DNA of 32,000 nt from Canicola haemoglobinophilus (GCF_002015075.1 NZ_MUXZ01000051.1:1-32000); one strand, 5' to 3'. Counted from the first letter of the stretch, positions 20,834 through 32,000 are shown. Notes: generated by a model from the sequence alone, not told the origin. Numbers and translations: made by a program.

Positions 20834-20877
20834 TCGCTTTATTGAGAAAGTGCGGTATAAATTAGATTAATAAAGGA

Positions 20878-20914
20878 AAAGATTGTTTTCAGTAAGAAAA
20901 CAATCTTTTTTGTT
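20878..20914 (+). terminator. Rho-independent terminator of gor
   Basis: A 13-bp stem, aaagattgttttc (20878-20890) / gaaaacaatcttt (20896-20908), with a following T-run. The last exact USS of the window (20848-20856) lies just upstream. Confidence 0.75.
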
Positions 20915-20955
20915 TGAATTTCAAAACTTGTCTAATGATGTTAGCTTTGAAAAGG

Positions 20956-20985
20956 AAAGGCTGTTTCCTGATGAAAACAGCCTTT
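20956..20985. terminator. Second hairpin in the junction region, with T-runs on both strands
   Basis: An 11-bp stem, aaaggctgttt (20956-20966) / aaacagccttt (20975-20985), flanked by T-rich runs on both strands. It could end minus-strand transcription leaving the island or belong to a disrupted host locus. Confidence 0.4.
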
Positions 20986-21223
20986 TGCTATAAGTGTTAT
21001 TCCCACTCGATATGTCCATTGATATTATTTTGTATAAATGGCATAAAATCAATGTTTTTGTTATCAGCTTTAGCCTTATTATCCGTTTTATTTCTGTTTA
21101 TCCGTTTTTTTGCAAGCATATTGCAAGCACAAGCATATTAACTTTTATAAAACTTACTTTTTATGTTTTAATACATAAATATTTTGTATATAACTTAACT
21201 CTAATAAATCAGCTATCTTATGA

Positions 21224-22396
21224 TTATAAATAATCAATTGTGTTCATAAAATTAAGTATTAATTCTGTAGTATTTATATGATTTTCATTTAATATTTCGA
21301 CAATATCTCTACCAGAAATAATAATTACAGGATGACCATCTTCCAACAATTCTTTATACGCTTGTTCAGAAACATACGATGTCGTAACAAAAATGCCAAA
21401 ATCTCGATATTTTAATCTAGATACTAGTCTGGATAATAATTTTACACCATTAGAATTGTCTCTTTGATAACACTTTGCTTCCAATGCACATCGTAACTTT
21501 ATAGAATTATTTTTATGTCCTAATTTATATTCACCTATAGCATCTATCCCTCCATCTCTCACCGCCCTTGTAATATTGAAATTCAAAAAATGATTATCCA
21601 TTAATCCAACTAACTTAGCCGCAAAAAACTCGAATTTATAAGGCTCATTTTTATAGTATTGATATATGATCTCTAATCTTTTTAACTCTTCATCTGTTGA
21701 CGGAAGTTGTTCAATCTTTGTTCTATATTCTTTTGTTTTCGGTGCTCTTAAAATAATATCTTCTGTTAATCCTTCCTTAACATACTTAATCCAAGCTTTA
21801 GGAGCATATTCCTTATTTAAATAATCTCCATCTACTAAACAATTAAGCCATTCTTTACTTATAGATTTGGTGTTTAAAATTGTAAAATGAGCTTCATAAT
21901 TTATAAATCGCTCTCCATTAGAAGTCCTCCAAATAGCTTTGAGAGAATTATCTCTGCCAAGATGATAGTCTTCTGGAACAGCTAAACCTAAAAATTTAAC
22001 ACTTCTATTACTAGTTATAGTAGGTTTTTTCATAAAGATAAAAATTGGTGGAATTTTGTTACGATCTTTTTCATTAAATATATTCTCTAATATTAAATTA
22101 CCCTTTTTAGAATCAACCTTATATCCAGGACTTTTATTATCACCATAATATTTAAATTTACCCATTTCCTGTTCTAATGTGTCCGGCCAATCTATATCTT
22201 CATTGGATGTATATAAAACTATATAAGCTTTATCTTTTGAGTTTAATACATTTTTAAATCTAAAACCTCCAGAATTTTGTACATTCATTAACTTAGTTAA
22301 TACCTCATCTGATATATTACCGTTATTCCCACCTTCATAAACTTCATCTATAACTAAATCTACTCCTGATTTACATATTTCTTCAAATAAAACCAT
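21224..22396 (-). CDS. Mrr-type PD-(D/E)xK restriction endonuclease with an SRA/PUA-like N-terminal domain
   Basis: The C-terminal ~130 aa has the Mrr_cat pattern (RDGGIDAIGEY...LRCALEAKCY...GVKLLSRLVSRL...FGIFVTTSYVSEQAY). The N-terminal part (GGFRF...AYIVLYTSNEDIDWPD...GKFKYYGDNK...KKGNLILENIF) resembles the SRA-type signature (hhLsGgyeDD.D.G..f.YtGsGG...GN.aL). SD AGGGAGA. Confidence 0.7.
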   Translation of the reverse strand: MVLFEEICKSGVDLVIDEVYEGGNNGNISDEVLTKLMNVQNSGGFRFKNVLNSKDKAYIVLYTSNEDIDWPDTLEQEMGKFKYYGDNKSPGYKVDSKKGNLILENIFNEKDRNKIPPIFIFMKKPTITSNRSVKFLGLAVPEDYHLGRDNSLKAIWRTSNGERFINYEAHFTILNTKSISKEWLNCLVDGDYLNKEYAPKAWIKYVKEGLTEDIILRAPKTKEYRTKIEQLPSTDEELKRLEIIYQYYKNEPYKFEFFAAKLVGLMDNHFLNFNITRAVRDGGIDAIGEYKLGHKNNSIKLRCALEAKCYQRDNSNGVKLLSRLVSRLKYRDFGIFVTTSYVSEQAYKELLEDGHPVIIISGRDIVEILNENHINTTELILNFMNTIDYL

Positions 22397-22418
22397 CTAT
22401 TCTCCCTTAACATTATAT

Positions 22419-23684
22419 TTAATAATCGAACTCATCCATATTATCCTTTTTTAAAAATTCCAACATTGCTGATGCTATTTTAAGAGATAATATAGGAGGA
22501 ACTGCATTACCTATTTGCTTAAATGCGGCTGTTCGTGAATGTTCAAAATAAAAATCATCTGGAAATCCTTGTATTCTTGCTGCTTCTCGCACTGTAATAG
22601 AACGATTTTGTCTTAAATCTGGATGGATATAATAATGTCCATCCTTTGATATATGGGCGACAATCGTATGACTTATGGAATCATAATCTAATGCTTTATA
22701 TCTGTCTAAAAAAGAAGTTATATTAGAATGTGTTTGAAGATCTATTGGTATATCAGTATATTTTAAATTACACCCTTTTTTTCTAGCTTTTAATACTAAC
22801 TTATATATCTTCAAGTCATTCTCATTATGAGGTCTTGCAATATGCTGAGTCAAAATATCTTCTTTGTTACGAATATATTTTTCAACAAAACTACTTGAAC
22901 ATTCACAACGATATTTATTAGCATCTTTTCCTGCTTTTATACTTGGTAGATCGTTAAATAACTCTTTTAATTTCGGAGCATTCTCTACATACTCATACAA
23001 GTAGTCAAAGAAAGACTTTTTTAACACCAAATCTTTTCTATAACCTACAAGGATTAGCCTCTCCCTCTTTTGCGACACCCCAAAATCACTAGCATCCACT
23101 ATTTTATAGTTGACCACATATCCAAGTTCATTAAACTCTCCAATTATTTTAGGTAGCAATAAGTCACCAGATAAATCCTTAAATGAGAGCAATCCTTTAA
23201 CATTCTCAAATACAAAGAATTTAGGATTATATCTATCTAAAAAATCTAAATAATGTTTATATAAGTAAATTCTTTTATCTGTTGACTTCTTAGCCTTATT
23301 GTTTGCTCTACCAATAGTAGAATACGCCTGACAAGGTGGTCCGCCTATGATTCCATCTAATTCTTTATCCCCCAATCGTTCGTCTATATATTCAAATATT
23401 GAGGGTATAGTGTCTTTGCTGATTTCTTCATTTAAAATATTCTTAGTCACATCACTCGGTACTAAGGAGCATAAATCATCTCTTGAAATATCGCCTTGTA
23501 AATACTCAAAATAAGGAGAGAGGTTATTTTCATTTTTTAAATAATAGTATACATTTCTTAACTCTAGTGAAGAGCAGGCATCTTTGTCCATCTCAACATG
23601 ACAAATAAAATCATAATAATCCTTATATCTAAAGCCTTCGGTTAATCCGCCAGCTCCTGAAAATAAATCCAGAATATTTAACAT
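22419..23684 (-). CDS. DNA (cytosine-5)-methyltransferase, second copy, specificity unknown
   Basis: Motif I DLFSGAGG, IV GGPPCQAYS, VI ENV, VIII QKRER, then [13 protein letters not shown] and X GNAVPP. Start set at ATG 23684, preceded by GGGAGGTG. The ORF-track TTG is at 23702. Confidence 0.93.
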   Translation of the reverse strand: MLNILDLFSGAGGLTEGFRYKDYYDFICHVEMDKDACSSLELRNVYYYLKNENNLSPYFEYLQGDISRDDLCSLVPSDVTKNILNEEISKDTIPSIFEYIDERLGDKELDGIIGGPPCQAYSTIGRANNKAKKSTDKRIYLYKHYLDFLDRYNPKFFVFENVKGLLSFKDLSGDLLLPKIIGEFNELGYVVNYKIVDASDFGVSQKRERLILVGYRKDLVLKKSFFDYLYEYVENAPKLKELFNDLPSIKAGKDANKYRCECSSSFVEKYIRNKEDILTQHIARPHNENDLKIYKLVLKARKKGCNLKYTDIPIDLQTHSNITSFLDRYKALDYDSISHTIVAHISKDGHYYIHPDLRQNRSITVREAARIQGFPDDFYFEHSRTAAFKQIGNAVPPILSLKIASAMLEFLKKDNMDEFDY

Positions 23685-23708
23685 AACCGCACCTCCCTTC
23701 AATTTATA

Positions 23709-25634
23709 TTATTTTTCTGTAGTCTCACTGGGATTATAAATACTCTCTATTTCTTGATACTTCGCAATATAATCTTTATTATACTGCTTTGCCTGTTGCA
23801 ATAAGTCTGAATACGACTTAATACACAACTTATTTGTATCTTCCAAAGATGAATAGAAGTCTTTTGTTTCTTCATCCATCTCAAAACTATCTGATATTAA
23901 GAATGTTTTCACACCATTAGCAATGCTTTCTTTATGATTTTTTAACAAAAATCTTTCGTACTCCCTAGCCTGTCTGATTTCTTTTAGTGAAATTTTGATT
24001 CTCGGTCTCTTCAATTCAATTATTATTAATTCACCATTTACTAAATTGCAAAGAAAATCTAATCTCCTATTTCTCTCTTCTAATTCATTATCAGGAAAAT
24101 TTTCTTTTAGTATTCTCTTAAATGTTAATTCTCTTTCAAATGTAGTTATTCTTGGATCTAATATCCAAGGGAATTTTTCTAAAAACGGTTGAATAACCTT
24201 TGTTTCACTAGCATCATTTTTTACATATCTTTCAAATTGCTCAATTGCCTTAATACGCCCTATTGATATTTTAGCCAATTCTTTTGATTCTATATATTCC
24301 CAATCTGCAGTTATTTTTTCAACTTTATCGACAGTCAAATCTTCATCATCTAACTCAGCTATATAGTTTTGAAAACTTTCAAATTTATACAGAGTCTTCA
24401 TGCTATCTAATATTCTTTTTAAAGATTCAATATTGTCTGTCTCTATGGAATTGGCAAGCATGGTATCTTTCACCTTATTTATGCTAGATATTTCAAGTTT
24501 AGTCATCCCTTCGTAAAAATCTTCAGGAAGCTGCAACTGTTCCTCTTTTTTCTTTTTTCTACTATTCCTCCACATAGCAGATACTTTTGAAACTAATTTA
24601 TTCAAATCATGTTTTAGTTGAACGGTATTATCATTTTCTTCCCACAAAATAGATTGCCTAGCTGTCGATATATAATCTGCTTCATCCGAATCATCTATAA
24701 AATCAATATTAAAAAATCCTGTCACATAACTATTAAACCTATCATTGGCTCTATCATCAAAGAATACATTTTCTGAAGCCAATTTGCTTCTGACATATAG
24801 TAAAAATCCACTATCTTTTTTTCTTAATGGTGTTGATTTAGTATAAATCTTTCCAGTAACTAAATTTTCATTCAATCTCCTAAACTCTTCAATACTATCA
24901 AGTTCATCAACAAAATCTTCTGGAAATGACCATTCAAATTCCTTGTCCAATCTGTCAAAATAGATGGATTTAGAAATTGGTTGCTCATTTGACGAGTTTT
25001 CATCAATAATTTTAACTTCAAAATCAGAATCGTAAAATGAAAATCGTCTAGACAAGTTATACGCTAGATCATCAATACTCATTATGCTTTTTTGCTTAAT
25101 TTCTTTAATATTGACAACTGTTCCAGATTTTTCGTTTGTATGCTCATTTTCACAAATACTATTAGGTCTATATTCTGTATCAGTTTCAGCTTTCATATCA
25201 TCATAATTTATACTGAATGCATTTTTCACTCCATCCTTAATAGAAGTAACTTCTATAGTATTTGCAATTCCAAATACTGCTAATTTGCCTAATCCTTTTT
25301 TTCCTGTTACTTTTCTATTTTTCCCTTTTGATAGACCTGTCCCTTCCGCTTTTCTTCTATTTCTGCCAATCACCAAAAAATTTTGATTCAATTCATCATG
25401 AGTCATACCCGTTCCGTTATCAATTACAGTAACTATTTTTTTGTCATAATTGATTCTTATTTCAACATTTTCAGCATCCGCATCATAAGAGTTTGAGATC
25501 AATTCTGCGATAACAGGAGGAAATGTACTATACAATTTAATTCCTAAGTGGTCTATTGTGTTCCTATCAAATTTTATGCTAAATCCATTATTTTCCATAA
25601 ATATACTATCTGATAAAGCTATCAGATCCTCCAT
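23709..25634 (-). CDS. GHKL (MORC/paraMORC-like) ATPase fused to a C-terminal Shedu/DUF4263-like PD-(D/E)xK nuclease
   Basis: Bergerat-fold motifs: N box ELISNSYDA, G1 DNGTGM, G2 GKKGLGKLAVFG. The C-terminus has VIQPFLEKFPWILDP...RRLDFLC...GELIIIELKRP...QAREY, that is a D...ExK nuclease core. Start is ambiguous among ATG 25634 (2 nt after the upstream stop), ATG 25646 and TTG 25652. Confidence 0.8.
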   Translation of the reverse strand: MEDLIALSDSIFMENNGFSIKFDRNTIDHLGIKLYSTFPPVIAELISNSYDADAENVEIRINYDKKIVTVIDNGTGMTHDELNQNFLVIGRNRRKAEGTGLSKGKNRKVTGKKGLGKLAVFGIANTIEVTSIKDGVKNAFSINYDDMKAETDTEYRPNSICENEHTNEKSGTVVNIKEIKQKSIMSIDDLAYNLSRRFSFYDSDFEVKIIDENSSNEQPISKSIYFDRLDKEFEWSFPEDFVDELDSIEEFRRLNENLVTGKIYTKSTPLRKKDSGFLLYVRSKLASENVFFDDRANDRFNSYVTGFFNIDFIDDSDEADYISTARQSILWEENDNTVQLKHDLNKLVSKVSAMWRNSRKKKKEEQLQLPEDFYEGMTKLEISSINKVKDTMLANSIETDNIESLKRILDSMKTLYKFESFQNYIAELDDEDLTVDKVEKITADWEYIESKELAKISIGRIKAIEQFERYVKNDASETKVIQPFLEKFPWILDPRITTFERELTFKRILKENFPDNELEERNRRLDFLCNLVNGELIIIELKRPRIKISLKEIRQAREYERFLLKNHKESIANGVKTFLISDSFEMDEETKDFYSSLEDTNKLCIKSYSDLLQQAKQYNKDYIAKYQEIESIYNPSETTEK

Positions 25635-25636
25635 TC

Positions 25637-26593
25637 CTATTTCCATCTGCAATCTATCGAAATGATAGTTGTTGGCATACCTATTATTTGTATATCAAAC
25701 TTCAGGCTAGGTTCGACCTTTGTAGATGCATTGTGAATTCTAAAGCTGAATTGCCAACCGCCATCAAGATATAATTCCAAAGTATTTTTACTGCTTGGTT
25801 TATAATCTAAACTTACAATTCGTGTTGGAAGTGTTGATATTGGTAATTCAATGCTTCTCTTTTTCTTATTCCCTTGCTTATTTAAAGTGCCTCTTAAATT
25901 ATAACTTTGAATTTGAGTTATTCGTTTGCTATCAATTCCAATAACTTTATAAAAATCAAATTCTCCAAGTAAATACTCCACCATAAGTCTAGGAATATCT
26001 TTACCAAACAAGCAATTTTGTCTCTCTAATTCCCCTTTAAATGCATTTAACAGTGGAACATATACATCATCTTCTTTATTAGGTAAATCACTCCACTTAG
26101 AGTCCTTTTGTTTCTCAACATCAAGATATTCAAATATAGGTTTAATCTCTTCCCAATATTGTTCGGAGCAATCTACCCCATACCATTTTCTACCAAAATC
26201 TAAGTTCTTTGACAGCCTACTATGCTTAACAGCAAAATGATTATGCTTAACACTTAAACCTATTTCCCATTCAATCCCTCGTCTAATAATCAAGACATCT
26301 CTTACATCGCCTTCCTTACCTTTATCATCCGATTGAATTTTTAGTTCAAGCTCATCGTCTCCATCATCTAAAATCAAAGGTTCAAGGTCAAATATAGTGT
26401 TGACTCCTGCCAAGGCACTAACTTTATATATTGTCTTTTCAGAGTCAGTTAAAGTATTCCATGCTCTTTCTGCTGCAAAGTAACTACTGTTTTCTTCTAT
26501 CTTTGCTGGTCTTGTTTTAGATATTTCTTCAAATAATGTAATTAAATAGGAGAACTCATATGCTCTTCCTTGATTATTACTTTTATTGCTCAT
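25637..26593 (-). CDS. Type II restriction endonuclease, HaeIII-like (probable GGCC)
   Basis: It lies immediately downstream of the M.HaeIII-like gene (13-nt gap, SD GGAGGT). The N-terminus MSNKSNNQGRAYEF and the core GDVRDVLII...IGLSVKHNH.AVKHSRLS fit my recollection of the HaeIII REase family and a D...(S/E)xK nuclease core. Not verifiable here. Confidence 0.7.
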   Translation of the reverse strand: MSNKSNNQGRAYEFSYLITLFEEISKTRPAKIEENSSYFAAERAWNTLTDSEKTIYKVSALAGVNTIFDLEPLILDDGDDELELKIQSDDKGKEGDVRDVLIIRRGIEWEIGLSVKHNHFAVKHSRLSKNLDFGRKWYGVDCSEQYWEEIKPIFEYLDVEKQKDSKWSDLPNKEDDVYVPLLNAFKGELERQNCLFGKDIPRLMVEYLLGEFDFYKVIGIDSKRITQIQSYNLRGTLNKQGNKKKRSIELPISTLPTRIVSLDYKPSSKNTLELYLDGGWQFSFRIHNASTKVEPSLKFDIQIIGMPTTIISIDCRWK

Positions 26594-26606
26594 GACTAAC
26601 CTCCAA

Positions 26607-27629
26607 TTAATTATCTGTACCAGTTTTTAATAGATTACTATTTACACTTGAATTATCTAAAGCAGATGAAATTGCTTTAGCCATTTCAAATGCAAGATTT
26701 ACTGGCACAGCATTACCAATCATTTTATAGGCATCATTTAAATTCGTATAATAGAATTTAAAATCATCTGGAAACCCTTGTATTCTTGCACACTCTCTCA
26801 CTGTTAATCTTCTGTATAGTGCTTCCTTACCAGGTTCGAATATATTTTTATTTTTTTCTACTTTAGGCATCACTGGTGCTTGTGGATGTAGCTGACATTG
26901 TCTTCCTGAAGCTTGAACTGTAAATGCCTGCTCATCCCATCGTCTAACTCTATTTCTACTCATAAAAATAGGTGAGTACGCACCGACAAAGTATTCATGA
27001 TTCATAACTTTGCAATTATTACCATTAGTTTTATTTTTCTCTAATGCCGGTATTGCAGAATCTTTCAAGTCCAAAATAGCATCTTTAAAAGTTAATTTGT
27101 TTTTATATGGTTTGGGTGGTTCAAATTTAACCTTCAAATCTTTCCTAAATCCTACATAAAAAACTCTTTTTCTATCTTGTGGAACACCATAGTCACTTGC
27201 ATTTAACAAGTGAATAAAGACATCATAACCAGCTTCTTCAAATTGAGAAACTATATTCTCAACGGCATCATTATGTCGTCTTGCCATCATCCCCTTAACA
27301 TTTTCGGCAAGGAAAAACTTAGGGTTTTTATCCTTCAAAATACGTATATACTGATAAAATAATTGCCCTCGCGGGTCATTGATCCCCTTTAAAGAACCTG
27401 CTTCACTCCATGATTGACATGGCGGTCCTCCTATAATTCCATCACAGTCAGGGAACATATCTGAAGGAATTCTACAAATATCTCCTTTTATAAGTTTAGT
27501 TTTATGATTTTTTTCATATGTTTCCCATATCGTTTTATCATATTCGTTTGCCGCAACCACATTAAATCCAGCTCTTTCAAAACCTAAATCTAATCCACCA
27601 GCTCCCGAAAACAAGCTAACTAAATTCAT
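26607..27629 (-). CDS. DNA (cytosine-5)-methyltransferase, M.HaeIII-like (probable GGCC)
   Basis: All ten C5-MTase motifs are present ([54 protein letters not shown]). The variable region [18 protein letters not shown] and long collinear stretches match the M.HaeIII sequence as I remember it. SD GGAGGT. Confidence 0.92.
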
Positions 27630-27630
27630 C

Positions 27631-27852
27631 TTATATTACCTCCGAAGAATCATTAACACATTCTACAATCTCTGAAATATCACATTCCAATACATTACAT
27701 ATTCTAAGTAATACATCAGTGGTTACATTTTCACCATTTTTTATCTTGTAAAATGTACTTCTACTCACTTTAGCTTTATCCATAAGCTCTGTATTCTTCA
27801 TTTCTATATCTATCAATCTTTTGAATAATTTTTTATAGCTAAGTTTTGACAT
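27631..27852 (-). CDS. Small Cro/C1 (XRE)-type HTH regulator, possible RM controller protein
   Basis: 73 aa with [33 protein letters not shown]. The stop is 1 nt from the MTase start. SD GGAGGA. First gene of the operon. Confidence 0.75.
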
Positions 27853-27895
27853 GATTATCCTCCAGTCCTATCCGTCTTAATATCATATCATTTCT

Positions 27896-27904
27896 ATTAT
27901 ACCA
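27896..27904 (-). promoter_or_regulatory. Candidate extended -10 promoter of the defence operon
   Basis: The minus strand reads TGGTATAAT (TGn plus a perfect TATAAT) about 44 nt upstream of the HTH ATG. No convincing -35. Confidence 0.4.
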
Positions 27905-28001
27905 TATAAATCAAACTTATAACAGTATTATATTCCGTTTTCTCAAACACAATGACACAAAGACTAATCGGTGCAGTCCTAAAACCACACCGACCATAAA
28001 A

Positions 28002-29462
28002 TTATCTTTCAGCTTCTTTCGATATTTTATTCTTTTCTTTAGAAATTTCTCTTTCTTCACTCCGATGTTTCTTAATTGCACCAATAACTGATTCCTTTTT
28101 CTTTTCAGTTTTATTCCTACCTAGATACTCATTCATATTAACTTTAAGATGTTCCAATCCCTTATGCTGTGCTGCTAATGAATTATGTTTCTTGATTATC
28201 TCCTCTTGTTTAGCTTGTATTTCTTTAGAATACTCATTTAATTTCTTGAAAAGATTTTTACTTGATTTTGTCTTTAACTCTCCTACTACAACATGTCTCA
28301 AGTGCGGGAATTGCTTAAGAAAAATATCTATTTCCTCATAAGACTTCTGATAGGCTTCTACATCTTTTCGATTCATCATCATATAAATTTTATCGTTCGG
28401 ATTTTTGTGATAACCCTCATAATGCTCTCTTTTACTTATACATATTTGAATATGTTTTACTACTTCCTTTATCCTTTTTTGCTCCAATAACAGCTTATCA
28501 AATTCTCGCTTCAAGTCCTTCTTTGCAATGGAAATTCGGCTGATACCACGTTCTAATTCTTCCATTGAATTAAATCCTTTATTCCTGATTTCAACAAGCG
28601 TAGAAGCAGCCGTTTTAAGATTATGTTTTGTTGCCCAATTTTCATATCCTTTGCTTGACTTTGCTTTTTCGCTGTTCTTAATATCAATGATATTTCCAAG
28701 TTCTTTATCTTTATTCAGGATTCTGTTCTTAATTCGTTCTTCATTGTAGTTAGCTCCAATGGTCTTTGCTCTGGTAAATCTCTGCTGATTTTTACCTCTA
28801 AAAGCTATATGCTTTCCATATTTTATTTCATAACCGTAGCTTTCCATTTTAGATAAAAAGTCCTGCCAGTTAATTGACTGCTTTATAGTTCTATCTATAT
28901 CAAACTGAAGTTTTGACTTATAGCTGCTTCCTTTTTTATCTTCATTCCAGTCATACCAATTCACAAACTTTCTTCTCTTGATTTCATTGATTTCCTTTTG
29001 CGTTTCAACATCTATTACCGATAAATTATGTCCCTTGCAAAGTCTATCGCTTTGATTTCTGATGTTCATATAAGAACCATAGTAGGAATGGTAAACTTTG
29101 CCCTCATCAACATCAATGGAATTAAAAATGATATGATTATGAATATGGTCTTTGTCGATATGCGTTGCTAAGACATATTCATATTTTCCCTCTAAAATCT
29201 TTTCGCAGAGTTCGATTCCCACTTGATGAGCTTCTTCAAAACTGACTTCTTCCGGCACAAAGGATTGAATTAAATGATGAGCTAAAGTTTTGGTTCTTGA
29301 GTTAAACTGTTTCTTGGTAAGCTCAAATTCTTTGTGAGTATTTTCTCTGCTACAAAGATATGTGGTAACATAGATTTCATCATCGGTTTTATCTCCGTTA
29401 CAGATGTAATCTATCGCCTTTTTAAGCGTTGTTTTAATCGGATGTATCTTCGTAACAGCCAT
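28002..29462 (-). CDS. Relaxase/mobilisation nuclease (MOBP-like, Relaxase PF03432 type)
   Basis: N-terminal MAVTKIHPIK..., HLIQSF, a three-His motif HIDKDHIHNHIIFNS (compare RP4 TraI HxDxDxxHxH), and a long K/E-rich coiled-coil C-terminus. The start overlaps the MobC stop. Confidence 0.9.
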   Translation of the reverse strand: MAVTKIHPIKTTLKKAIDYICNGDKTDDEIYVTTYLCSRENTHKEFELTKKQFNSRTKTLAHHLIQSFVPEEVSFEEAHQVGIELCEKILEGKYEYVLATHIDKDHIHNHIIFNSIDVDEGKVYHSYYGSYMNIRNQSDRLCKGHNLSVIDVETQKEINEIKRRKFVNWYDWNEDKKGSSYKSKLQFDIDRTIKQSINWQDFLSKMESYGYEIKYGKHIAFRGKNQQRFTRAKTIGANYNEERIKNRILNKDKELGNIIDIKNSEKAKSSKGYENWATKHNLKTAASTLVEIRNKGFNSMEELERGISRISIAKKDLKREFDKLLLEQKRIKEVVKHIQICISKREHYEGYHKNPNDKIYMMMNRKDVEAYQKSYEEIDIFLKQFPHLRHVVVGELKTKSSKNLFKKLNEYSKEIQAKQEEIIKKHNSLAAQHKGLEHLKVNMNEYLGRNKTEKKKESVIGAIKKHRSEEREISKEKNKISKEAER

Positions 29463-29842
29463 TATCCTACAACCTCATTGATAATATAGTCGGAAATTTT
29501 TTCTCTAAATTCTGATAAGAAAAGAAGTTCACCTTGCAAAGCTTTTTTGATGCTTTCAATATCATCTTTGTAAATAATCCCTGAGCTGTTTACCGCTTTT
29601 GCTATATGATTTAAGTTCGCCGAATTACGACTGATAAGGGTAGAAAGCTCTCTCAGTTCTTTTCGAAACTCACCGGATAAATCAATACTAATGATTCTAT
29701 TTTTAAAAATACTGTCTCGGTAAAACTCTCTCTTGCTCTTAAAATTGGTCAATGCAAATCTTCGGTTAAGCTCATTTATATCTTCTTCATTCACCATAAA
29801 GTGAACGGTACAATTATTTTTACGATTAACTGTCTTTGACAT
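29462..29842 (-). CDS. MobC-family relaxosome accessory protein
   Basis: 126 aa with NLNHIAKAVNSSG, the MobC-type N(L/I)NQIA motif. It lies directly upstream of, and overlaps, the relaxase gene. SD AAGGAGAG. Confidence 0.8.
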   Translation of the reverse strand: MSKTVNRKNNCTVHFMVNEEDINELNRRFALTNFKSKREFYRDSIFKNRIISIDLSGEFRKELRELSTLISRNSANLNHIAKAVNSSGIIYKDDIESIKKALQGELLFLSEFREKISDYIINEVVG

Positions 29843-29956
29843 TTTTCATCTCTCCTTTCTTTTTCGGGGTCTTAGGGTTCCTATCTACCTATAATTCATG
29901 ATTTTTATAAATCCATCTTTAACTTGCACAGAAAAAATGGATGTAGATTCTTCAAT

Positions 29957-30033
29957 TACCGTTTGCACCGTTCATACCGCACGACATTCCCTTACACATG
30001 AAACATCAAACGGTACGAACGGTTTGAACGGCA
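29957..30033. repeat. Two converging arrays of 9-bp ACCGTT-core repeats (candidate oriT or iteron region)
   Basis: Left array: taccgtttg / caccgttca / taccgcacg (29957-29983). Right array: caaacggta / cgaacggtt / tgaacggca (30007-30033). 29957-29965 is the exact reverse complement of 30007-30015. The spacer is 23 bp. The repeats sit in the intergenic region upstream of mobC-relaxase. Confidence 0.5.
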
Positions 30034-30035
30034 TT

Positions 30036-30998
30036 TTAATAAATCACATCCTCTGAATTATATTTAACTTGATAGTTATTGTTGTTTTTCCCTCGCTTCA
30101 TGGAAATGCTTATTCCATTTTTCCTGAGAATATCTTTATTACGATTTAATGTCTTTCCAAACTGCTGAGGGCTTTCAATTTCTAAATTGATTTTGGAACA
30201 AATATCTACGATTGTTCCCTCTATTTCTTTTAATCTCGGCATTACTTGTACAAGTCTTTGAATTGACGGTTCAAGCATTTCAATCGGATCAATTTTATCA
30301 AGCTCTAATATCTTCTTTGACGGATGGATTTTAACCTGATATACCTTTGACTCAAAAAGTCTACTGGTTACATCTAAGTTAAATTCTGTATCAAATTCTG
30401 ACGCTTTATCAATAGCTATTATGGTGTCAACTGAACCGGATAATGCCTGTGAACCTATGACTTTTTCGCTTACACTTTTCACTGACGAGTCCTTTTTTGT
30501 ATGGTACATCATAATAAATGTGCATCCATACTTATCTATCAAATCGTAGTATTTTGCCATCACTTCATAGGTGTCATTGTAGTCATTAGCATTATACTTT
30601 CTGTCGTATTTGATTTTAGAAAAGGTGTCTACAATAAATACTTCATAACCTAAATCTGTATCTGCTTTAACAATTCTTTCAAAGTCATCAAAATCCACAT
30701 AACTTGTTCCCTCATAAAATTTCATAGTACTTGAACAAGGAAGCTCCAATCTTTTAATTCTTTCTTGAATTAGCCTTCCGGATAGTTCATTGCAATAGTA
30801 AACAACCTTTGTTTTATTAACTTTATTTTCAAGAAAATCAATTCCTTCGTTGATACATATACCAAGATTTAGTCCTAATGCTGTCTTACCTTTTTTAGGT
30901 GAGGCTACTATCAAAGTAATACTTTTTCTTGCAATGATGTTGTCCACAATATACTTATCAGAGGCATCAAACTCAGTATCTATCGTATATGCTTTCAA
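30036..30998 (-). CDS. RecA-fold AAA ATPase (RepA/DnaB-like, AAA_25 type) of a replication module
   Basis: Walker A ASPKKGKT and Walker B VFIVDTF. There is a 4-nt overlap (ATGA) with the upstream prim-pol gene. Confidence 0.7.
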   Translation of the reverse strand: MKAYTIDTEFDASDKYIVDNIIARKSITLIVASPKKGKTALGLNLGICINEGIDFLENKVNKTKVVYYCNELSGRLIQERIKRLELPCSSTMKFYEGTSYVDFDDFERIVKADTDLGYEVFIVDTFSKIKYDRKYNANDYNDTYEVMAKYYDLIDKYGCTFIMMYHTKKDSSVKSVSEKVIGSQALSGSVDTIIAIDKASEFDTEFNLDVTSRLFESKVYQVKIHPSKKILELDKIDPIEMLEPSIQRLVQVMPRLKEIEGTIVDICSKINLEIESPQQFGKTLNRNKDILRKNGISISMKRGKNNNNYQVKYNSEDVIY

Positions 30999-31918
30999 CG
31001 AACTACCTCCCTTGTTTTTCTATGATAGTTATAATCCCAATAATTCGTTCCGCCGACTTCCTGTGCCTTTTGAATGCTCTGGTTTAAGTATTTAATATAT
31101 GCTGCCTCAGTTCTTCTCTTACTCATATCACCCATTCGATTTAGGGCTGATTTTAAGAATATCTCAAGCATTAAATCTGCATTGCCATGTGTAAAGCTGT
31201 TTAGAATAAGAAGCAATTGAAAATCGTCTTTGCTTGAATCACCTGTGGAATATTTACCTCTAAAAAGCTCTCTGCCTTTGCGATTAGTCATATAAATTGC
31301 CTTTAAAATTCCTTCTATATCCGGAACATCACTATCTATGCTTTTATAGTATTCAATTTGCTCTTTAATCGTTTCTTTAAGGGCATACTTTTTATAGTAG
31401 ATATTTAACTTATAGTAATTATCCTGTATTTCTTTACAATCTCCTATGACATTACCCGTCATGGCAATGCACTTATTTGACTTATACATTTCAAAGCGGT
31501 CTATTTGATTATTTACATTCTTTGGAATTGACCCCTTTGCAAAGATATGCAATCCATTTTCCGATATAGATGTTTCCTTATAAGTTTCTGCAAAATCACT
31601 CACGATGTCGTTCACGTTTTCAAAATTTTCTTTTACATTGTCTAAATCAATGCAGACATAAGGATCATCTTCAGTTAAAACAAACGATAGTCCATCACAA
31701 CCACTTTTTTCTAAGCCTTCTAAAGCAGTTTCAAAATCTGTCCAGTTCTCTTTTATATTCCATTCATTTGATTCACAAGTGATTGGACTGATTGGAATTT
31801 TTACAGTTTTTATATTCCCATTTTTGTCTTTGTTATGATAAATCTTAAACCATAACCATTGTTTACATTCTTTTAACTCCTGCGGAATATTGTTAATATA
31901 TTTTCCTTTGTTTATCAT
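30995..31918 (-). CDS. Bifunctional DNA primase/polymerase (AEP prim-pol) with a PriCT-like C-terminal region
   Basis: AEP motifs: WLWFKI...KIP N-terminus, DxD (YVCIDLDN) and sGxGxH (SENGLHIFAKG). SD GGAGGT. Confidence 0.8.
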   Translation of the reverse strand: MINKGKYINNIPQELKECKQWLWFKIYHNKDKNGNIKTVKIPISPITCESNEWNIKENWTDFETALEGLEKSGCDGLSFVLTEDDPYVCIDLDNVKENFENVNDIVSDFAETYKETSISENGLHIFAKGSIPKNVNNQIDRFEMYKSNKCIAMTGNVIGDCKEIQDNYYKLNIYYKKYALKETIKEQIEYYKSIDSDVPDIEGILKAIYMTNRKGRELFRGKYSTGDSSKDDFQLLLILNSFTHGNADLMLEIFLKSALNRMGDMSKRRTEAAYIKYLNQSIQKAQEVGGTNYWDYNYHRKTREVVR

Positions 31919-31953
31919 TTTTTACCTCCATATTTTTGTTGATGATAGAAGTA

Positions 31954-31997
31954 CAACCTGATAAAATCTTTTTAAGAGTTGCAATCTTATCAGGTTG
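31954..31997. repeat. 11-bp perfect inverted repeat upstream of the prim-pol gene
   Basis: caacctgataa (31954-31964) / ttatcaggttg (31987-31997) with a 22-nt loop. It could be an operator or the terminator of a gene lying beyond the window. Confidence 0.3.
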
Positions 31998-32000
31998 CTT

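What the first reader, a model, noticed from the sequence alone, without database searches (positions are those of the whole stretch)
21224..25652. Three-gene module: C5-MTase, MORC-like GHKL ATPase-nuclease fusion and SRA-like/Mrr nuclease, a candidate uncharacterised defence system
Seen in sequence: three co-oriented genes lie 22-24 nt apart. The first is a GHKL ATPase with a C-terminal D...ExK nuclease core. The second is a complete ten-motif cytosine-5 methyltransferase. The third is a protein joining an SRA-like N-domain to an Mrr-type catalytic domain. Established knowledge: comparative-genomics work by Iyer, Abhiman and Aravind predicted prokaryotic MORC/paraMORC GHKL ATPases to be RM-linked. 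As far as I know, no system with this composition has a worked-out mechanism. Inference: the set of a 5mC writer, a putative 5mC reader and a MORC-type ATPase mirrors the eukaryotic DNMT / SRA-protein (UHRF1, SUVH) / MORC axis, but with two nucleases attached. One possible scheme is that the methyltransferase marks self DNA, the GHKL ATPase clamps or dimerises on DNA, and it licenses one or both nucleases, in the way MutL activates MutH or Vsr.
Basis: partly seen in the sequence, partly recalled or inferred. Interest (0 to 1): 0.88.

Follow-up and report, generated by a model that had tools for sequence, protein, structure and literature searches.

The report
Stacked restriction modules on a mobile element
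The three genes are real, but they are a restriction-modification pair whose cutting enzyme carries an ATPase domain, followed by a separate, well-known methylcytosine-dependent restriction enzyme; related genomes show the two parts come and go independently, so this is ordinary defence cargo rather than a new three-part system.

Summary
Three intact, co-oriented minus-strand genes lie 22-24 nt apart, each with a ribosome-binding site.

- Gene 3 is a full-length homologue of the crystallised 5mC-dependent enzyme AspBHI (MspJI family). Its 5mC-pocket and catalytic residues are intact.
- Gene 1 belongs to the family that NCBI names after the type II enzymes BbrUII and HgiDII. It has a GHKL ATPase, an Hsp90-like middle domain and a C-terminal PD-(D/E)XK nuclease of the Shedu/NucS kind.
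- Gene 1 sits next to a C5 methyltransferase in about 20 context types surveyed, from 90% down to 25% identity. None of those below 88% identity has an AspBHI-like gene.
- DNA junctions show clean module shuffling. GHKL+MTase is a 3.2-kb indel between a HaeIII-like system and the AspBHI-like gene.
- The AspBHI-like gene is a pseudogene or remnant in close relatives whose GHKL and MTase genes remain intact.

The best reading is three stacked restriction modules carried as cargo of a low-GC mobilizable element in Canicola haemoglobinophilus. These are a HaeIII-like system, a GHKL-type R-M pair and an AspBHI-type type IV enzyme. The role of the ATPase domain remains unsolved, but that question is already in the literature.

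The parts
23709..25652 (-). GHKL-ATPase / PD-(D/E)XK nuclease fusion, the restriction subunit of a BbrUII/HgiDII-type R-M pair. The likely true start is the ATG at 25634 (641 aa) or 25598 (629 aa).
   Evidence: Pfam HATPase_c_3 scores 82 bits. NCBIfam NF050001 scores 313 bits over the full length, against a cut-off of 550. The C-terminus gives sub-threshold SduA_C (23.9 bits) and NucS_C (23 bits) hits. Conserved residues are E50, N54, D57, D78, G82, K119, G120, G122, K123, E483, D532, E546, K548 and Q561. The AF2 model has pLDDT 85.6 and its best fold matches are Hsp90 family members.
22419..23684 (-). Cytosine-5 DNA methyltransferase, cognate partner of the GHKL nuclease (421 aa from the ATG at 23684).
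   Evidence: Pfam DNA_methylase scores 203 bits and TIGR00675 scores 185 bits. Motifs I, IV, VI, VIII, IX and X are readable. The RBS is shown. The gene is adjacent to GHKL homologues in about 20 context types surveyed.
21224..22396 (-). AspBHI/MspJI-family 5mC-dependent restriction endonuclease (type IIM/IV): an SRA-like N-domain plus an Mrr-type nuclease.
   Evidence: Pfam RE_AspBHI_N scores 176 bits and Mrr_cat 52.5 bits. PADLOC mREase_II scores 437 bits. PDB 4oc8 (AspBHI) matches at E = 3e-77 over residues 10-377. The equivalents of AspBHI D32, D71, Y82, D85, D282, E303 and K305 are all conserved (with PMC3946040).
25637..26593 (-). HaeIII-family restriction endonuclease (neighbouring module).
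   Evidence: Pfam RE_HaeIII scores 450 bits.
26607..27629 (-). HaeIII-like cytosine-5 methyltransferase (neighbouring module).
   Evidence: Pfam DNA_methylase scores 360 bits. PADLOC MTase_II scores 410 bits.
27631..27852 (-). Small HTH protein, probably the controller of the cargo operon. A promoter-like site lies at 27910..27882 and a terminator-like hairpin upstream at 27996..27965.
   Evidence: Pfam HTH_26 scores 57 bits. Promoter and terminator scan. The same HTH gene precedes the cassette in Streptococcus agalactiae, Enterococcus faecalis and locus L112.
20995..21223 (.). Non-coding tail of the shared cassette. Homology with other copies ends at about 20995-21003, which is the likely left edge of the imported DNA. 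The gor terminator hairpin at 20875-20911 lies just outside it.
   Evidence: blastn end points for L112 and L081. Hairpin. GC content drops at about 20.9 kb.
28002..31918 (-). Mobilisation and maintenance genes of the carrier element: a MobA/VirD2 relaxase, a NikA/MobC-like protein, an AAA_25 ATPase and a 307-aa ORF.
   Evidence: Pfam Relaxase scores 124 bits. NikA-like and AAA_25 hits.

Best explanation
The region is the defence cargo of a low-GC integrative mobilizable element that sits after gor in Canicola (Haemophilus) haemoglobinophilus. The cargo is a stack of three separable restriction modules, probably read from one promoter upstream of a small HTH gene.

1. A HaeIII-like type II R-M system.
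2. A two-gene R-M system whose endonuclease has three parts: an N-terminal GHKL ATPase, an Hsp90-like middle domain, and a C-terminal PD-(D/E)XK nuclease of the Shedu/NucS kind. This is the protein family that contains the type II enzymes HgiDII and BbrUII. Its partner is a cytosine-5 methyltransferase.
3. An AspBHI/MspJI-family enzyme that cuts DNA carrying 5-methylcytosine in sequence contexts other than the host's own.

Shown here:
- Family memberships and intact catalytic residues.
- Near-constant GHKL-MTase pairing across distant lineages.
- Independent gain and loss of the AspBHI-like gene.

Inferred:
- The MTase protects host sites, and the GHKL enzyme cuts unmethylated foreign DNA.
- ATP-driven dimerisation of the GHKL domains gates assembly of the nuclease dimer.
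- The AspBHI-like tetramer flips out 5mC and cuts about 12/16 nt away. It acts on incoming DNA with foreign 5mC or 5hmC patterns.
- It must ignore the patterns written by the two resident MTases.

The three genes are neighbours that complement one another. They are not one machine.
For: Family identity:
- Searches give the family assignments. Asp390 matches AspBHI (4oc8) at E = 3e-77 with all essential residues. GHKL647 and all 53 of 53 family representatives hit NF050001, with a best E-value of 1.7e-233.
- The nuclease is of the Shedu/NucS kind. SduA_C is hit in 19 of 53 relatives, HSDR_N_2 in 21 and NucS_C in 9.

Pair conservation:
- An adjacent C5 MTase is present in Lachnoanaerobaculum, Veillonella, Mycoplasmoides, Salinicoccus, Reichenbachiella and Lactobacillus apis.
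- It is also present in Dialister and Enterococcus faecalis.
- It is present on plasmids of Streptococcus agalactiae, Acinetobacter, Pantoea, Rhizobium and Burkholderia.
- Gene order and orientation vary among these loci. None has an AspBHI-like gene.

Decay of the AspBHI-like gene:
- In L081 it is 97% identical but carries a frameshift and an internal stop.
- In L083-86 only a 58-aa remnant is left. GHKL and MTase stay intact in all of these.

Junctions:
- L099 has the HaeIII R-M joined to the AspBHI-like gene by 18 nt. The window has a 3.2-kb GHKL+MTase insert at exactly that point.
- L102 and L001 have HaeIII R-M plus GHKL+MTase but no AspBHI-like gene.
- L094 and L096 share only MTase plus the AspBHI-like gene.

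Hotspot:
- In Firmicutes contigs the AspBHI-like gene is the constant gene distal to guaA. Variable cassettes lie between the two.
- The 3' end of guaA is a known IME integration site (PMC5357655).

Literature:
- R.HgiDII has a GHKL N-domain (PMC2441816).
- M.HgiDII and M.BbrUII are 5mC MTases (PMC5867850).
- About half of MspJI-family genes lie beside C5 MTases (PMC2938202).
Against: - The window protein scores 313 bits on NF050001, below the curated 550-bit cut-off. It is a family relative, not a proven equivalent of HgiDII or BbrUII. Its specificity and cofactor needs are unknown.
- In L087 and L088 the MTase carries a 1-nt insertion just before GGPPCQ while the GHKL ORF is intact. This is awkward for a classical, lethal-if-unprotected R-M pair.
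- One distant homologue, in Rubrobacter (L114), has no listed MTase nearby.
- The MTase and AspBHI-like genes also travel together behind a different GHKL protein in L094-98. Some coupling between those two genes therefore cannot be excluded.
- Tight spacing and the absence of terminators are compatible with co-expression of all three genes.
Confidence: 0.75

Rival explanations
1. One reading: one integrated three-component system. The MTase writes 5mC, the SRA-like/Mrr protein reads it, and the GHKL ATPase clamps DNA and licenses both nucleases, in the way MutL activates MutH or Vsr.
For: - The gaps are 22-24 nt, each gene has its own RBS, and there is no internal terminator.
- The trio is intact in at least one other sample at 99.6% DNA identity (L112), and probably in several more contigs.
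- An AspBHI-like gene also follows an M427-like MTase behind a second, unrelated GHKL protein (L094-98).
Against: - GHKL+MTase persists without the AspBHI-like gene from 82% down to 25% identity.
- The AspBHI-like gene is a pseudogene or remnant in the nearest relatives.
- The AspBHI-like gene occurs with a HaeIII R-M only, or alone.
- There are clean indel junctions between the modules.
- AspBHI and MspJI are active on their own in vitro as homotetramers (PMC3946040, PMC2938202).
Confidence: 0.07
2. The GHKL-nuclease is a Shedu-type sensor nuclease (type 1D, paraMORC3-like, as VcSduA) and not a sequence-specific restriction enzyme. It is switched on by an infection cue through its ATPase domain. 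The MTase provides general self-marking or has another role.
For: - The C-terminal nuclease gives SduA_C and NucS_C hits and carries the E / D / ExK / Q motifs described for Shedu (bioRxiv 10.1101/2023.08.10.552793).
- VcSduA has the same architecture and needs both its ATPase and nuclease residues for anti-phage activity (PMC12137116).
- The broken MTase next to an intact GHKL gene in L087/88 and the MTase-less Rubrobacter locus suggest the nuclease is not always lethal without the MTase.
Against: - A C5 MTase is adjacent almost everywhere, in varied gene orders. This is the signature of an R-M pair. VcSduA-type Shedu is a single-gene system.
- The family model is named after two enzymes with type II activity.
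- The SduA_C hit in the window protein is below Pfam's cut-off.
Confidence: 0.12
3. The MTase and the AspBHI-like enzyme are a co-adapted pair: an epigenetic exclusivity module that imposes one 5mC pattern and destroys DNA bearing others. The upstream ATPase-containing partner is interchangeable.
For: - L094 and L096 share with the window exactly the segment from the MTase start to the AspBHI-like stop (23700 to 21224, 78% identity), behind a different upstream module.
- Zheng et al. noted an unexplained, frequent association between MspJI-family genes and C5 MTases (PMC2938202).
Against: - The same MTase lineage occurs without an AspBHI-like gene (L102, L001, L002, L089-93).
- The AspBHI-like gene occurs without it (L099-101, L105-109).
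- The constant position of the AspBHI-like gene distal to the guaA integration site explains the adjacency without any functional coupling.
Confidence: 0.06

Closest known systems
AspBHI (Azoarcus sp. BH72) and the MspJI family of modification-dependent restriction enzymes (type IIM/IV); structures 4oc8, 4rzl, 4f0p
   Same: The two proteins are collinear over the full length: 390 aa against 388 aa, E = 3e-77. Both have an SRA-like N-domain and an Mrr-type C-domain. The 5mC-pocket residues (D71, Y82, D85), D32 and the catalytic D...EAK are all conserved (PMC3946040). Like about half of the family, the gene lies next to a C5 MTase (PMC2938202).
   Different: The Loop-B3 residues that set AspBHI's 5' flank preference (S41, R42) are Q and N here. 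The sequence context recognised is therefore probably different. Activity was not tested.
R.HgiDII / R.BbrUII with M.HgiDII / M.BbrUII (type II R-M; NCBIfam NF050001). That both enzymes recognise GTCGAC is from my own knowledge; PMC5867850 confirms it for M.HgiDII.
   Same: The endonuclease has a GHKL N-domain plus a C-terminal nuclease, and its partner is a cytosine-5 MTase. The window protein aligns with the family model over its full length, and all 53 relatives hit the model.
   Different: The score is 313 bits against a 550-bit equivalog cut-off, so this is a distant branch. The recognition site is unknown, and GTCGAC does not occur anywhere in the 32-kb window. The MTase is about 420 aa, with extra sequence between motifs I and IV.
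paraMORC3 (Iyer, Abhiman and Aravind 2008) / Shedu type 1D with a GHKL N-domain, e.g. VcSduA of Vibrio cholerae
   Same: The architecture matches: a GHKL ATPase, a middle (transducer) domain, and a C-terminal E-D-ExK restriction-fold nuclease related to DUF4263/SduA_C (PMC2292703; PMC12137116).
   Different: VcSduA works as a single gene with no methyltransferase. This family is almost always paired with a C5 MTase. The SduA_C match in the window protein is sub-threshold.
Eukaryotic and prokaryotic MORC ATPases
   Same: Both have the Bergerat-fold GHKL ATPase with motifs I-IV and a following middle domain.
   Different: In a profile search of PDB sequences, HtpG/TRAP1 (40 bits) and MutL (36 bits) rank above MORC3 (29 bits). 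The top 50 fold matches are all Hsp90-family chaperones. The resemblance is at superfamily level only.

Membership tests
MspJI/AspBHI family (modification-dependent type IIM/IV REases) | N-terminal SRA-like 5mC-binding domain (Pfam PF18062) | tested here: met
   176 bits, residues 26-209, covering profile positions 2-184 of 185.
MspJI/AspBHI family (modification-dependent type IIM/IV REases) | Flipped-5mC pocket residues (AspBHI D71, Y82, D85) and the invariant D32 | tested here: met
   All four are identical in the HMMER alignment to 4oc8. Their roles are described in PMC3946040.
MspJI/AspBHI family (modification-dependent type IIM/IV REases) | C-terminal Mrr-type nuclease with D...(Q/E)AK | tested here: met
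   Mrr_cat scores 52.5 bits. GGIDAIG and LEAKCY align with AspBHI D282 and E303-A-K305.
MspJI/AspBHI family (modification-dependent type IIM/IV REases) | Cleavage only of 5mC/5hmC DNA, at a fixed distance 3' of the modified base; homotetramer | not testable with these tools
   Needs purified protein and methylated substrates.
BbrUII/HgiDII family restriction enzyme (NCBIfam NF050001) | Whole-protein score at or above the curated cut-off of the family model | tested here: not met
   313 bits against a cut-off of 550, although the alignment is full-length (residues 24-636 against profile positions 1-649 of 659). All 53 relatives hit the model, best E = 1.7e-233. The protein is a relative in the same superfamily, not an equivalog.
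BbrUII/HgiDII family restriction enzyme (NCBIfam NF050001) | GHKL N-domain with intact ATP-binding motifs, plus a C-terminal nuclease domain | tested here: met
   E50, N54, D57, D78-x-G-x-G82, G117...K123 and G177-T178 are conserved, as are E483, D532, E546-x-K548 and Q561.
BbrUII/HgiDII family restriction enzyme (NCBIfam NF050001) | Adjacent cognate cytosine-5 methyltransferase | tested here: met
   Present in the window and in about 20 context types surveyed. There is one exception, L114.
BbrUII/HgiDII family restriction enzyme (NCBIfam NF050001) | Sequence-specific cleavage of unmethylated DNA that is blocked by the partner MTase | not testable with these tools
   No biochemical data are available. 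The 32-kb window is too small for site-avoidance inference on 6-mers.
MORC family (sensu Iyer et al. 2008) | Closer to MORCs than to other GHKL clades; the MORC-specific S5 motif GhXhhpXXRhl | tested here: not met
   The PDB profile search ranks HtpG/TRAP1 (40 bits) and MutL (36 bits) above MORC3 (29 bits). The Foldseek top 50 are all Hsp90 family. The motif itself was not searched for.
Shedu (SduA) type 1D / paraMORC3 | C-terminal DUF4263/SduA_C nuclease domain (PF14082) | tested here: inconclusive
   The window C-terminus scores 23.9 bits against a cut-off of 27. 19 of 53 relatives match at E <= 0.01. The motif pattern E / D / ExK / Q matches the one described for Shedu.
Shedu (SduA) type 1D / paraMORC3 | Acts as a single-gene system without a modification partner | tested here: not met
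   The gene is almost always next to a C5 MTase.
DISARM class 2 (suggested by the PADLOC DrmMII hit of the MTase) | Presence of DrmA, DrmB and DrmC/E next to DrmMII | tested here: not met
   The neighbours are a GHKL nuclease, the AspBHI-like gene and a HaeIII R-M. No helicase or DUF1998 genes are present.

The most novel reading that the evidence does not exclude
The C5 MTase and the AspBHI-like enzyme form a co-adapted writer/reader pair. This pair is repeatedly joined to GHKL-ATPase modules of two unrelated kinds: the fused GHKL-nuclease seen here, and a GHKL/histidine-kinase-like protein plus a receiver-like protein in L094-98. In this reading the ATPase senses or remodels DNA and controls when the 5mC-dependent nuclease may cut. 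That would be a bacterial counterpart of the DNMT / SRA / MORC axis.
Probability: 0.06. Interest if true: 0.7.

Novelty: new member of a known kind. Interest (0 to 1): 0.27.

Why it matters
As a stack of known restriction modules, the locus matters mainly as a clear example of modular shuffling of defence genes. The shuffling occurs at an integration hotspot and on mobilizable elements that cross from Firmicutes into Pasteurellaceae.

Two open questions attach to it, and both are already in the literature:
- What does the GHKL ATPase do in HgiDII-type restriction enzymes? These now appear to carry a Shedu/NucS-like nuclease.
- Why do MspJI-family 5mC-dependent enzymes sit beside C5 methyltransferases so often?

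This compact, intact cassette from a cultivable host would be a convenient system for studying both questions. It does not open a new one.

Tried and rejected
- The first AF2 run used a shallow alignment (17 sequences, 64-90% identity). It gave pLDDT 57.5 and was not used. A 118-sequence alignment gave pLDDT 85.6.
- The fold search of the full-length model was dominated by the Hsp90-like N-terminal and middle domains. The nuclease domain could not be searched on its own.
- I tested whether variable regions of the GHKL protein co-vary with the MTase target-recognition region, which would support a specificity-matched R-M pair. There was no clear pattern. L081 has an identical MTase variable region, yet its GHKL protein is only 63-80% identical to the window's in residues 121-270.
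- Site avoidance in 32 kb has no power for 6-mers.
- The DISARM reading of the MTase (PADLOC DrmMII, 486 bits) was rejected because no other DISARM genes are present.
- The MORC label was rejected.
- hhalign of the 381-aa L094 protein against the GHKL-nuclease family found nothing. Only a weak receiver-domain hit was found.
- The paper that characterised BbrII (PMC3815753) is not held. The GTCGAC specificity of BbrUII therefore rests on my own knowledge. PMC5867850 covers M.HgiDII.

Full report
**1. The observation**

The window holds three intact ORFs on the minus strand: 25652..23709, 23702..22419 and 22396..21224.
- A GGGAGG lies 7 nt before an ATG at 23684. This makes the methyltransferase 421 aa and puts it 24 nt after the first gene's stop.
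- A GGGAG lies 5 nt before the ATG at 22396, which is 22 nt after the methyltransferase stop.
- The 647-aa length of the first gene is the longest ORF, from a TTG that overlaps the stop of the upstream gene. Database entries for this exact protein use 641 or 629 aa.
- No terminator-like hairpin lies on the minus strand between 27965 and 20909.

The description is therefore accurate.

**2. What each gene is**

Gene 3 (390 aa):
- It matches Pfam RE_AspBHI_N (176 bits) and Mrr_cat (52.5 bits).
- It matches a PADLOC methyl-directed restriction enzyme model at 437 bits.
- It aligns with the crystallised enzyme AspBHI over residues 10-377, at E = 3e-77.
- The residues shown by mutagenesis to be essential in AspBHI are all conserved. 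These are D32, the 5mC-pocket residues D71, Y82 and D85, and the catalytic D282 and E303-A-K305 (PMC3946040).
- The Loop-B3 residues S41 and R42, which shape AspBHI's flank preference, are Q and N here. The context recognised probably differs.

Gene 3 is a member of a well-characterised family. These enzymes are homotetramers that flip out 5mC with an SRA-like domain and cut about 12/16 nt away.

Gene 2 is a standard cytosine-5 methyltransferase with all conserved motifs.

Gene 1:
- It has a GHKL ATPase domain (HATPase_c_3, 82 bits).
- It aligns over its full length with NCBIfam NF050001, the BbrUII/HgiDII family restriction enzyme. The score is 313 bits, below the 550-bit equivalog cut-off.
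- All 53 representatives of its wider family (25-50% identity) hit the same model, with a best E-value of 1.7e-233.
- The ATP-binding motifs are conserved across that family (E50, N54, D57, D78-x-G-x-G82, G117...K123). So is a nuclease motif set (E483, D532, E546-x-K548, Q561).
- The C-terminal domain gives sub-threshold SduA_C and NucS_C hits in the window protein. SduA_C hits occur in 19 of the 53 relatives.
- The motif pattern matches the one described for the Shedu nuclease (bioRxiv 10.1101/2023.08.10.552793).
- A confident model (pLDDT 85.6) finds only Hsp90-family chaperones among its top 50 fold matches, over the ATPase and middle domains.
- By sequence profile, HtpG/TRAP1 and MutL rank above MORC3.

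The protein is therefore a GHKL / Hsp90-like-middle / restriction-fold nuclease fusion. Iyer et al. called this architecture paraMORC3 (PMC2292703). Orlowski and Bujnicki noted it in R.HgiDII (PMC2441816). It was shown to give anti-phage activity in VcSduA, where both the ATPase and the nuclease residues are needed (PMC12137116). 'MORC-like' holds only at superfamily level.

**3. Is the trio a unit?**

I surveyed the neighbourhoods of homologues of gene 1 and gene 3.

Relatives of gene 1 sit next to a cytosine-5 methyltransferase in the following places:
- Lachnoanaerobaculum, Veillonella, Mycoplasmoides, Salinicoccus, Reichenbachiella and Lactobacillus apis.
- Dialister and Enterococcus faecalis.
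- Plasmids of Streptococcus agalactiae, Acinetobacter, Pantoea (inside a prophage), Rhizobium and Burkholderia.

These relatives span 82% down to 25% identity. The methyltransferase lies upstream, downstream or convergent. None of these loci has an AspBHI-like gene. One distant homologue, in Rubrobacter, has no listed methyltransferase.

The trio occurs only in relatives at 88% identity or above. It is intact in the window and in a 99.6%-identical metagenomic copy (L112). Matching longest-contig lengths in the three protein clusters suggest it is intact in a few more contigs. In other relatives it has decayed:
- In L081 the AspBHI-like gene is 97% identical but has a frameshift and an internal stop.
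- In L083-86 only 58 codons remain. The GHKL and methyltransferase genes are intact in these loci.

**4. Junctions**

DNA comparison shows clean module boundaries.
- L099 matches the window over the HaeIII-like system (27643 to 25638) and over the AspBHI-like gene (22408 to 21229). Only 18 nt separate the two matches in L099. The 3.2-kb GHKL+methyltransferase segment of the window is therefore a precise indel.
- L102 and L001 match from the HTH gene to the end of the methyltransferase (28106 to 22473), and a relaxase gene follows.
- L094 and L096 match only from the methyltransferase start to the AspBHI-like stop (23700 to 21224).
- In L094 and L096 a different partner lies upstream. It is a 719-728-aa protein with an N-terminal GHKL domain and a histidine-kinase-like C-terminus, followed by a 380-aa protein with a weak receiver-domain match.

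In the Firmicutes contigs the AspBHI-like gene is the constant gene distal to guaA. Variable cassettes, or an integrase-bearing element, lie between the two. The 3' end of guaA is a known integration site for streptococcal mobilizable elements (PMC5357655). Hotspot architecture therefore explains the adjacency without functional coupling.

**5. Setting**

Exact look-up identifies the host as Canicola (Haemophilus) haemoglobinophilus.
- The segment from about 21.0 kb to beyond 32 kb has 28-33% GC, against about 38% in the flank.
- It encodes a relaxase, a NikA/MobC-like protein and an AAA_25 ATPase.
- It lies after gor.
- Homology with other copies of the cassette ends at about 20995-21003.
- The same cargo occurs in S. 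agalactiae, S. suis, Peptoniphilus and Enterococcus.

This is consistent with import from Firmicutes.

**6. Mechanism**

Shown here:
- Family membership and intact active sites.
- Near-constant pairing of the GHKL nuclease with the methyltransferase.
- Independent turnover of the AspBHI-like gene.

Inferred from family knowledge:
- The methyltransferase protects host sites.
- The GHKL enzyme cuts unmethylated incoming DNA.
- ATP-driven dimerisation of the GHKL domains gates the nuclease.
- The AspBHI-like enzyme attacks DNA with foreign 5mC or 5hmC patterns, and must tolerate the two resident patterns.
- Applying AspBHI's published rule, (C/T)(C/G)(5mC)N(C/G), a GG(5mC)C site would not be a substrate. 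The specificity of this homologue is unknown.

Points against a simple R-M reading:
- In L087/88 the methyltransferase is broken next to an intact GHKL gene.
- The Rubrobacter locus has no listed methyltransferase.

These keep a Shedu-like, cue-activated reading alive at about 0.12.

**7. Comparison and novelty**

Each component is a new member of a known kind.
- The association of GHKL ATPases with cytosine methyltransferases and restriction-fold nucleases was described in 2008 (PMC2292703, PMC2441816).
- The puzzling proximity of MspJI-family enzymes to C5 methyltransferases was described in 2010 (PMC2938202).

The unsolved part is the role of the ATPase domain in HgiDII-type enzymes. That question is real but not new. 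Interest is low to moderate.

Noticed in passing
window 20900-32000: This is a low-GC (28-33%) mobilizable element in Canicola haemoglobinophilus, inserted after gor. It carries a relaxase, a NikA/MobC-like protein, an AAA_25 ATPase and a 307-aa ORF with no clear family. Its right end lies outside the window. Its left edge is at about 20995-21003, judged from where homology with other copies stops.
   Followed up: partly
window 1-20900: In the host part of the window, GGCC (7 observed, 31 expected), CCGG (2 observed, 14.8 expected) and CCWGG (5 observed, 15.2 expected) are strongly under-represented relative to a Markov expectation. This suggests long exposure of the lineage to HaeIII-, HpaII- and EcoRII/Dcm-type systems.
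   Followed up: no
L087 8240-8260 and L088: In an 82-83%-identical copy, the partner methyltransferase has a 1-nt insertion just before the catalytic GGPPCQ, while the GHKL nuclease ORF is intact. The same lesion appears in at least two samples. This is odd for a classical R-M pair.
   Followed up: partly
L094 2358-8173; L096-L098: An AspBHI-like gene (83-84% identity) and an M427-like MTase (74-76% identity) follow a different module. That module is a 719-728-aa protein with an N-terminal HATPase_c_3 domain and a histidine-kinase-like C-terminus, plus a 380-aa protein with a weak receiver-domain match. It resembles the TCS-like paraMORC systems of Bellieny-Rabelo et al. 2021, but it does not hit their Pfam models.
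   Followed up: partly
L099 2391-4283: A 630-aa protein that matches the PADLOC candidate system PDC-S56 (643 bits) sits between guaA and the HaeIII R-M plus AspBHI-like block.
   Followed up: no
L085 14217-16909: A second C5 MTase (342 aa) is followed by a 555-aa HATPase_c_3 protein. This protein shares only the N-terminal 360 or so residues with the window protein. It belongs to a large subgroup of about 550 aa with a different C-terminus, which is also seen among the representatives.
   Followed up: no
L114 (Rubrobacter marinus plasmid NZ_CP045122, 222990-230921): A distant full-length GHKL-nuclease homologue (27% identity) has no listed MTase nearby. It is flanked by a DEAD/DEAH helicase, a PD-(D/E)XK protein and a gene annotated 'restriction endonuclease'. 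The PLSDB gene table may be incomplete.
   Followed up: no
window 22240-22290 (codons for Asp390 residues about 36-52): The residues that align with the AspBHI specificity loop B3 (S41, R42) are Q and N. This points to a different flanking-sequence preference from AspBHI.
   Followed up: no
L092 1757-9139 (Enterococcus faecalis): The same HTH gene (74% identity) heads a cassette in which an McrB/McrC-type pair plus a C5 MTase replaces the HaeIII system, upstream of GHKL+MTase. A relaxase and MobC follow. This is another example of module swapping within the same carrier frame.
   Followed up: no
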